Source of the DNA: Octopus vulgaris
Lineage: Eukaryota
NCBI GenBank assembly: GCA_951406725.2
Contig: CATOCA020000098.1
Span: forward strand, 1 to 5,823
Direction of reading: 5' to 3'
DNA length: 5,823 nt
In this document: positions 2,406-2,889 of the stretch, one piece after another
Numbering within the stretch: position 1 is the first letter of the stretch
Layout of the letters: every line of letters starts with the position of its first letter
Notes under the pieces: generated by a model
Database searches by the model: none
Told to the model about the DNA's origin: nothing
The model's input: the letters and a program-made list of their open reading frames with translations, nothing else
Made by a program: the position numbers and the translations under genes

Positions 2406-2453
2406 GTGAATTGAAGAAATGGAACAGACACGAAGATTGAACAGAGATAATTT

Positions 2454-2546
2454 TATTGCATTCTACACGTGTTTCGAAAAACACAATTTACCTAATTCCG
2501 ATTGAATAAGGAGGCCGTATTTTGTCTTTCTCTTCAGGAAGAAATA
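2454..2546 (-). ncRNA. Type I hammerhead ribozyme (PLE-type), minus-strand copy
   Basis: On the minus strand: CUGAAGA at 2537-2531, stem II GAAAGACAAAAU/AUUGUGUUUUUC, GAAA at 2475-2472, CACGUG, GUA at 2466-2464. All core nucleotides are identical to the plus copy. Confidence 0.85.
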
Positions 2547-2629
2547 GGAATTCCGTTGGCTCTTAGGAGCCTCGTTCGATTTGTTTTGCTGCGCCTCTGT
2601 TCTGTTTTTGTTTTTGCCAACGGAATTCC

Positions 2630-2722
2630 TATTTCTTCCTGAAGAGAAAGACGCAATATGGTCTCCTTATTCAATCGGAATTTGGTAAATTGTGGCTTTC
2701 GAAACACGTGTAGAATGCAATA
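2630..2722 (+). ncRNA. Type I hammerhead ribozyme (PLE-type)
   Basis: Stem I UUC(2636-2638)/GAA(2713-2715), with possible extension UAUU/AAUA. Core CUGAAGA at 2639-2645. Stem II GAAAGACGCAAU(2646-2657)/AUUGUGGCUUUC(2689-2700). GAAA at 2701-2704, then CACGUG palindrome. GUA cleavage triplet at 2710-2712. Confidence 0.85.
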
Positions 2723-2724
2723 AA
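2719..2724 (+). promoter_or_regulatory. AATAAA, possible polyadenylation signal, 6 nt downstream of the hammerhead cleavage site (mirrored at 2452-2457 on minus)
   Basis: Hexamer seen directly in both arms; function is inferred only. Confidence 0.4.
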
Positions 2725-2889
2725 ACGATTTCTGTTCAATCTTCGTTCAACTCCATTTCTTCAATTCACTAATAATATTAAAATTCAATTATCCGCACCA
2801 ACGCACGGTTGCAACACCATATGGTTGTACCTCCAACCGTGCTGTCTTCTGCTCTGTGATTTTTACTAGGTATGTTAAACTTTTGATGA

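What the first reader, a model, noticed from the sequence alone, without database searches (positions are those of the whole stretch)
2406..2769. Palindromic cassette carrying two divergent hammerhead ribozymes, one on each strand
Seen: 155/154-bp inverted arms around a 55-bp spacer. Each arm contains an intact CUGAAGA...GAAA-CACGUG-UA hammerhead core followed by AATAAA, and the two point away from the centre. None of the ~15 differences between arms touches a core, stem I or stem III nucleotide. Established: PLE pseudo-LTRs carry type I hammerheads, and PLE insertions often include inverted 5'-truncated segments. Inference: this is either a head-to-head pair of PLE termini or a small non-autonomous, ambisense ribozyme element mobilised by a Neptune-type RT/endonuclease such as the neighbouring one. 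A read-through transcript from either side makes the antisense arm first, so it would fold into a ~155-bp dsRNA hairpin that sequesters the ribozyme and could be a Dicer/ADAR substrate. Only transcripts starting in or near the spacer would expose an active ribozyme.
Basis: partly seen in the sequence, partly recalled or inferred. Interest (0 to 1): 0.85.

Follow-up and report, generated by a model that had tools for sequence, protein, structure and literature searches.

The report
Head-to-head Penelope retroelement insertion
The palindrome is real but ordinary: it is two shortened 3' ends of one abundant Penelope-like jumping gene joined head to head, each carrying that family's predicted hammerhead ribozyme, likely made in a single two-ended insertion, and it is not a mobile cassette.

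Summary
The inverted repeat and both hammerhead motifs are there. The arms and spacer are the 3' UTR of their own autonomous Penelope-like element (B): a full-length copy encodes a 904-aa RT/GIY-YIG protein with Hydra-clade marks. B is unrelated to the neighbouring Neptune-like ORF (A), into whose 3' UTR it inserted. This exact junction occurs only here and in three segmental duplicates, so the palindrome does not move as a unit. In a 72-locus census, 53 loci have two opposed arms; in 52 of 53 one arm ends at the arm end and the other 158 nt further (the tail); 24 of 72 carry two divergent hammerheads. Junctions vary and show microhomology. Best mechanism: two cDNAs primed from both ends of a cut (TA)n, then joined. 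Opposite-strand hammerhead pairs and one-ended tails are published (PMC4209133, PMC8557442), and this scan reported similar insertions in other genomes. Modest extras: a long tail, and (TA)n targeting without the linker zinc finger. 11 of the 14 arm differences are private to this mosaic-looking contig.

The parts
2406..2560 (-). Left arm: 5'-truncated 3' end of element B, ending at site 1 (arm end) against the microsatellite; covers element positions -152..0
2461..2540 (-). Predicted type I minimal hammerhead (C3 at 2537, predicted cut after 2464)
2558..2560 (.). 3-bp microhomology shared by both copies at the junction
2558..2769 (+). Right copy of element B 3' UTR (-211..0); the 55-bp 'spacer' 2561-2615 is simply the part of this copy that the left arm did not reach
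2636..2715 (+). Predicted type I minimal hammerhead (C3 at 2639, predicted cut after 2712, self-complementary stem III)
2770..2895 (+). PLE tail (158 nt in the family and in the C7 copies, degraded here); in the full-length element this sequence precedes the ORF start
90..1689 (+). Host element A: 5'-truncated, frameshifted Neptune-like RT plus GIY-YIG ORF; not the parent of the arms
1690..2405 (+). Element A 3' UTR, microsatellite-rich part upstream of the B insertion
2896..4164 (+). Rest of element A 3' UTR including the 44-bp tandem repeat (3847-4074), ending in (TA)n

Best explanation
The palindrome is one insertion of an autonomous Penelope-like retroelement with Hydra-clade marks, in which two 5'-truncated copies of its 3' end were joined head to head, likely after its RT/GIY-YIG protein cut both strands of a (TA)n tract and primed a cDNA from each end. 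One cDNA would start at site 1 (57 nt past the hammerhead cut site), the other at site 2 (158 nt further, giving the one-sided tail); both stopped early and their 3' ends would anneal through a few bases (GGC here) and be repaired. Shown: parent ORF, element layout, (TA)n flanks, the site 1/site 2 asymmetry, variable junctions, microhomology, nesting in element A. Inferred: the double cut, the two primings, the repair step. The two hammerheads are passengers: any insertion whose two cDNAs both run more than about 135 nt past site 1 has them. The motif is under structural selection in the active element, where it is predicted to cleave as a dimer; nothing shows a function for this dead copy.
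For: Full-length copy L113: tail, 904-aa ORF, about 660 nt UTR, spacer, arm, tail. Census of the 72 loci behind the first 100 of 698 pattern matches: 53 two-armed, 52 of 53 site 1/site 2, 1 site 2/site 2, 0 site 1/site 1 (binomial p 6e-15 against independent choice); 104 of 106 ends have (TA)4 within 30 nt. Of 48 junctions tried, 47 scored: 28 without inserted bases, 27 of these with overlap >=2 nt against 16% expected, and 19 with inserted bases. 50 different truncation pairs among 52; the only repeat is -72/-72 (3 loci with unrelated flanks) at an internal 8-bp palindrome. In 24 of 52 the tail-less arm is the longer one and in 9 of 52 the tailed arm lies wholly within the tail, which a single folded-back cDNA cannot give. 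Published: two RT start sites define the tail, both strands are cut (PMC11167929); inverted truncated copy plus one-ended tail (PMC8557442); dual min-HHRs 100-700 bp apart on opposite strands (PMC4209133).
Against: No biochemical or transcript data for this family. 19 of 72 census loci show a single arm by BLAST (at least one has a tiny opposite arm). 11 of 52 junctions are near-symmetric, which fold-back would also explain. The tail (158 nt) is longer than the 30-40 nt described. Whether one or two RNA molecules serve as template is not resolved. Clade assignment rests on motifs, not on a tree with named Hydra sequences.
Confidence: 0.9

Rival explanations
1. Self-priming: one cDNA (or antisense RNA) folds back at a short internal complementarity and copies itself, making the inverted arm (the model in PMC3846280).
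For: Microhomology at junctions; the window's tailed arm is the longer one, as fold-back requires; 11 of 52 near-symmetric junctions, three at a perfect palindrome; PMC3846280 discussion.
Against: In 24 of 52 loci each arm holds sequence that the other lacks, 9 with no overlap at all; it gives no reason for the second arm to stop at site 1 in 52 of 53.
Confidence: 0.07
2. A small non-autonomous ambisense ribozyme cassette that moves as a unit, mobilised by the neighbouring Neptune-like protein.
For: A search with the whole 364 bp returns many full-length look-alikes.
Against: Those look-alikes have different junctions; the exact junction has 4 matches, all one ancestral event; B has its own ORF with RT under purifying selection (10 synonymous, 4 nonsynonymous codon differences between two copies); A and B proteins align only weakly.
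Confidence: 0.01
3. Assembly artefact (fold-back read or collapsed repeat).
For: The window is a whole 5.8-kb unplaced contig that looks mosaic: its A 3' end is 100% identical to a young subfamily but 76% to the C7 copies sharing its junctions; left-arm variants are private.
Against: The same palindrome and junction lie at three chromosome-scale places and the architecture recurs in 53 of 72 loci. Only the private differences, and perhaps contig C128 itself, are likely artefacts.
Confidence: 0.02

Closest known systems
Hydra clade of C-terminal EN+ Penelope-like elements (Craig et al. 2021, PMC8557442; section 11, passages and supplement rows read; includes Hydra-1_Obim from an octopus)
   Same: Single ORF with RT and C-terminal GIY-YIG, DKT motif, no CCHH, CxxC and CxH around the catalytic E and N, hammerhead, (TA)n target, inverted truncated copy with a one-ended tail.
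   Different: Longer (about 3.7 kb, 904 aa against about 700-730 aa in most homologs) through N/S-rich inserts; linker CxCX5C lost (0 of 22 B copies against 79 of 80 EN-complete homologs); tail 158 nt rather than 30-40 nt. Not compared with Hydra-1_Obim by sequence.
Minimal (dimer-type) hammerheads of metazoan PLEs (Cervera and De la Pena 2014, PMC4209133; parts 1-2 of 4 read)
   Same: Type I, short stem I, long stem II, small palindromic stem III; the paper reports dual motifs 100-700 bp apart on opposite strands.
   Different: Stem II carries a long loop region (about 30 nt beyond 12 paired positions); cleavage untested here.
Poseidon element PAc in vitro (Frangieh et al. 2024, PMC11167929; parts 1-2 of 4 read)
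   Same: Two RT start sites defining the tail, cutting of both strands at AT-rich DNA.
   Different: Different clade; here the two sites are 158 nt apart and lie upstream of the ORF start, and the census shows they are used one per end.
L1 twin priming (search listing and abstract start only; otherwise recalled)
   Same: Both target ends prime cDNA; the inverted pieces are joined by microhomology.
   Different: In L1 the two pieces do not overlap; here most loci copy the same 3' region twice, and both starts are at fixed internal sites.
Non-LTR retrozymes (10.64898/2026.07.22.740005, part 1 of 5 read)
   Same: Type I hammerhead of PLE origin.
   Different: Retrozymes are head-to-tail tandem, non-autonomous units; this is a head-to-head remnant of an autonomous family.

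Membership tests
EN+ Penelope-like element | Single ORF with RT and C-terminal GIY-YIG endonuclease | tested here: met
   904-aa ORF in L113 with YRDD and GIY-YIG-type motifs, aligned to 11 homologs; Pfam gave no hit for it
EN+ Penelope-like element | Inverted 5'-truncated copy and tail at one end | tested here: met
   52 of 53 two-armed loci
EN+ Penelope-like element | Hammerhead motif in the terminal repeat | tested here: met
Hydra clade | DKT motif, RWK-like N-terminal motif | tested here: met
   SDKT present; RWK position reads RWL in B, RWK/RWR in most aligned homologs (definition)
Hydra clade | No CCHH; CxxC and CxH flanking catalytic E and N | tested here: met
   (L113 itself has F at the last Cys; most other copies have C)
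Hydra clade | CxCX5C linker | tested here: not met
   0 of 22 B copies; 79 of 80 EN-complete homologs have it. Read as secondary loss, so B is filed as Hydra-like rather than a typical member
Hydra clade | (TA)n insertion | tested here: met
   104 of 106 ends
Hydra clade | Phylogenetic placement with named Hydra proteins | not tested
   no named Hydra sequence was among the tool results
Neptune clade (as parent of the arms) | Arms are part of the Neptune-like unit | tested here: not met
   no arm or spacer in 14 other A loci; A and B proteins share one weak 104-aa match
Minimal PLE hammerhead | Conserved core with covarying stems and self-complementary stem III | tested here: met
   non-pairing stem III centre in 45 of 7,524 motifs
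Minimal PLE hammerhead | Self-cleavage | not testable with these tools
   needs an in vitro assay
Retrozyme or MITE-like mobile cassette | Same unit with fixed internal structure at many independent loci | tested here: not met

The most novel reading that the evidence does not exclude
Penelope-like elements insert by obligatory asymmetric two-ended priming, and the hammerhead's self-complementary stem III is a dimer-linkage signal that holds two template RNAs on the protein dimer so that each DNA end gets its own template; (TA)n targeting needs no linker zinc finger.
Probability: 0.12. Interest if true: 0.65.

Novelty: new member of a known kind. Interest (0 to 1): 0.27.

Why it matters
The locus itself matters little. 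The family offers a clean genomic test of how PLEs build head-to-head insertions: the near-strict one-tail-per-insertion rule and the non-nested arms favour two primings over the published self-priming model, and B keeps strict (TA)n targeting without the linker zinc finger that PMC8557442 proposes as the targeting module. Thousands of such palindromes could also supply dsRNA in this genome, which is untested.

Tried and rejected
Rfam scan: only low-scoring hairpin matches, no hammerhead. Pfam on the B protein: no hit. Whole-palindrome search looked like recurrence of a unit but was selection for similar junction sizes. An early idea that 2868 is a 5' splice site failed: that sequence comes from small deletions private to the window. 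Assembled contigs of four public runs cover the right copy and tail and one continues upstream into B's UTR, but none spans the palindrome; they show nothing on expression, and no RNA coverage of the full element was obtained. A relaxed hammerhead scan found none within element A, which nonetheless forms head-to-head insertions with a 46-nt one-ended tail (6 clear cases): this counts against the hammerhead being needed for the architecture. Arm 5' ends do not gather at the cut site (0 of 104 within -60..-54; 16 of 104 within -231..-211, counted; the census requires one arm to span the cut site). Literature searches found no count of tail asymmetry; the paper on PLE hammerheads cleaving as dimers was not held, Repbase/Dfam could not be searched, and only metadata rows of the PMC8557442 supplement were read, so B may already be catalogued.

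Full report
Observation. The window is a whole unplaced 5,823-bp contig of a 2.8-Gb genome. The inverted repeat is as described: 155 and 154 bp, 55 bp apart, 14 differences. Each strand has a type I hammerhead core with a 3-bp stem I, a long stem II and the self-complementary CACGUG in stem III; predicted cuts fall after 2712 and 2464. Rfam has no matching model at E<=1. The motif is nevertheless well supported: a relaxed pattern finds 7,524 of this type against 0 for the control; in 23 motifs chosen to span subfamilies 89.9% of cells pair, stem II has two-sided changes at 7 of 12 pairs, and slid controls fall to 35-53% (relatedness inflates the shuffle test). The stem III centre varies among pairing combinations, and the non-pairing one occurs in 45 of 7,524, which fits selection for a dimer in the active elements.

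What the arms are. Loci sharing the arm extend upstream through the 'spacer' into about 660 nt of UTR and then an ORF. L113 holds a full-length copy: tail sequence, ATG, 904-aa ORF, UTR, spacer, arm, 158-nt tail, (TA)n. Its 107 homologs at E<=1e-20 are mostly 700-730 aa (only 8,000 candidates were scored). The alignment shows DKT, a GIY-YIG-type domain without CCHH, and CxxC/CxH around the catalytic E and N, the Hydra-clade marks of PMC8557442; that paper lists an octopus Hydra family with (TA)n preference. One named homolog is from Argonauta; a cephalopod host is my inference. B departs from Hydra in lacking the CxCX5C linker and in N/S-rich inserts. Between two B copies the RT region has 10 synonymous and 4 nonsynonymous codon differences, the insert plus linker 5 and 26, so B has likely been moving with its own protein.

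The neighbour is only the landing site. The window's RT/GIY-YIG ORF (A) has its own 3' end: microsatellite UTR, the 3491-3860 segment, the 44-bp repeat and a 46-nt tail. In 14 other A loci no arm or spacer occurs, and the two proteins align weakly. B sits in a TA run of A's UTR.

Does the palindrome move as a unit? No. A search with all 364 bp returns many look-alikes, but their truncation points differ. The exact junction, with one mismatch allowed, has 4 matches: the window and three C7 places that are about 99.5% identical over 19.8 kb, so segmental duplicates.

Census. I fetched the 72 loci behind the first 100 of 698 exact 29-mer matches, a sample blind to tail and junction but requiring one intact core. 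53 have two opposed arms and 19 one arm; 52 of 53 pair a site 1 end with a site 2 end, 1 has two tails (one running on into a tandem), none has two site 1 ends; 24 of 72 carry two divergent hammerheads; 104 of 106 ends abut (TA)n. Of 48 junctions tried 47 were scored: 27 of the 28 without inserted bases overlap by 2 nt or more (16% expected) and 19 have inserted bases; the window's overlap is 3 nt. The tail-less arm is longer in 24 of 52, the tailed arm in 17, and 11 are within 10 nt; in 9 the tailed arm lies wholly within the tail.

Mechanism. PMC11167929 showed in vitro that a PLE protein cuts both strands of AT-rich DNA and starts reverse transcription at two internal sites that define the tail, that its hammerhead needs the protein to cleave, and that cleavage is dispensable for insertion. 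Applied here by inference: each end of a cut (TA)n primes a cDNA, one at site 1 and one at site 2; both stop early and are joined by microhomology. The self-priming model of PMC3846280 cannot give arms that each hold sequence the other lacks, although it may account for some symmetric junctions and cannot be excluded for this one locus. The two hammerheads are a by-product. A read-through RNA would fold into a long hairpin, but I have no RNA evidence.

The differences between arms. The C7 copies differ at 3 positions. The other 11 are private to this contig, whose A 3' end matches a young subfamily at 100% but the C7 copies at 76%, so the contig is likely a mosaic consensus.

Against the bolder reading. 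A palindromic stem III 60 nt from site 1 could tether two template RNAs, but family A makes the same structure with no hammerhead found by my scan, and Naiads do so without canonical hammerheads.

Known already. PMC4209133 reports dual minimal hammerheads 100-700 bp apart on opposite strands; PMC8557442 describes the inverted truncated copy and one-ended tail. Earlier notes of this scan describe similar insertions in other genomes (unchecked). Verdict: real, explained, a new member of a known kind; interest 0.27, mostly for the census result and the lost linker.

Noticed in passing
L113:3402-6113 and L081-L110: B protein has lost the CxCX5C linker found in 79 of 80 EN-complete homologs yet still inserts in (TA)n; it also carries about 190 extra N/S-rich residues, recalling the N-rich inserts of rotifer Penelopes.
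   Followed up: partly
census loci, element positions -231..-211: 16 of 104 arm 5' ends fall in this 21-nt stretch about 90 nt upstream of the hammerhead core, none at the cut site; may mark a transcription start or an RT stop.
   Followed up: partly
L139, L167, L184: Three loci with unrelated flanks share a perfectly symmetric junction at an internal 8-bp palindrome; L037 and L176 also share one junction.
   Followed up: partly
L042-L047 (C7 58.74-58.96 Mb): Three segmental duplicates; the A insertion sits at the centre of a 4.2-kb inverted duplication of its flank, and its inverted arm lacks the stretch holding B.
   Followed up: no
L262, L269 (element A full length): Young Neptune-like family with a 1.3-kb microsatellite-rich 3' UTR, an upstream frame of about 470 aa overlapping the RT frame, a 46-nt one-ended tail and no hammerhead found.
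   Followed up: partly
L111:2167-3256: Head-to-tail array of three B 3' units, a retrozyme-like partial tandem.
   Followed up: no
L114:7236-8165: A second Hydra-like family directly after a B tail; several related families share the hammerhead and the two-site layout.
   Followed up: no
window 4900-5552: 3' fragment of another repeat, probably a LINE, with a short TCAA tail; absent downstream of the C7 copies.
   Followed up: no
window 24-87: Remnant of the inverted arm of element A, shortened relative to the C7 copies.
   Followed up: partly
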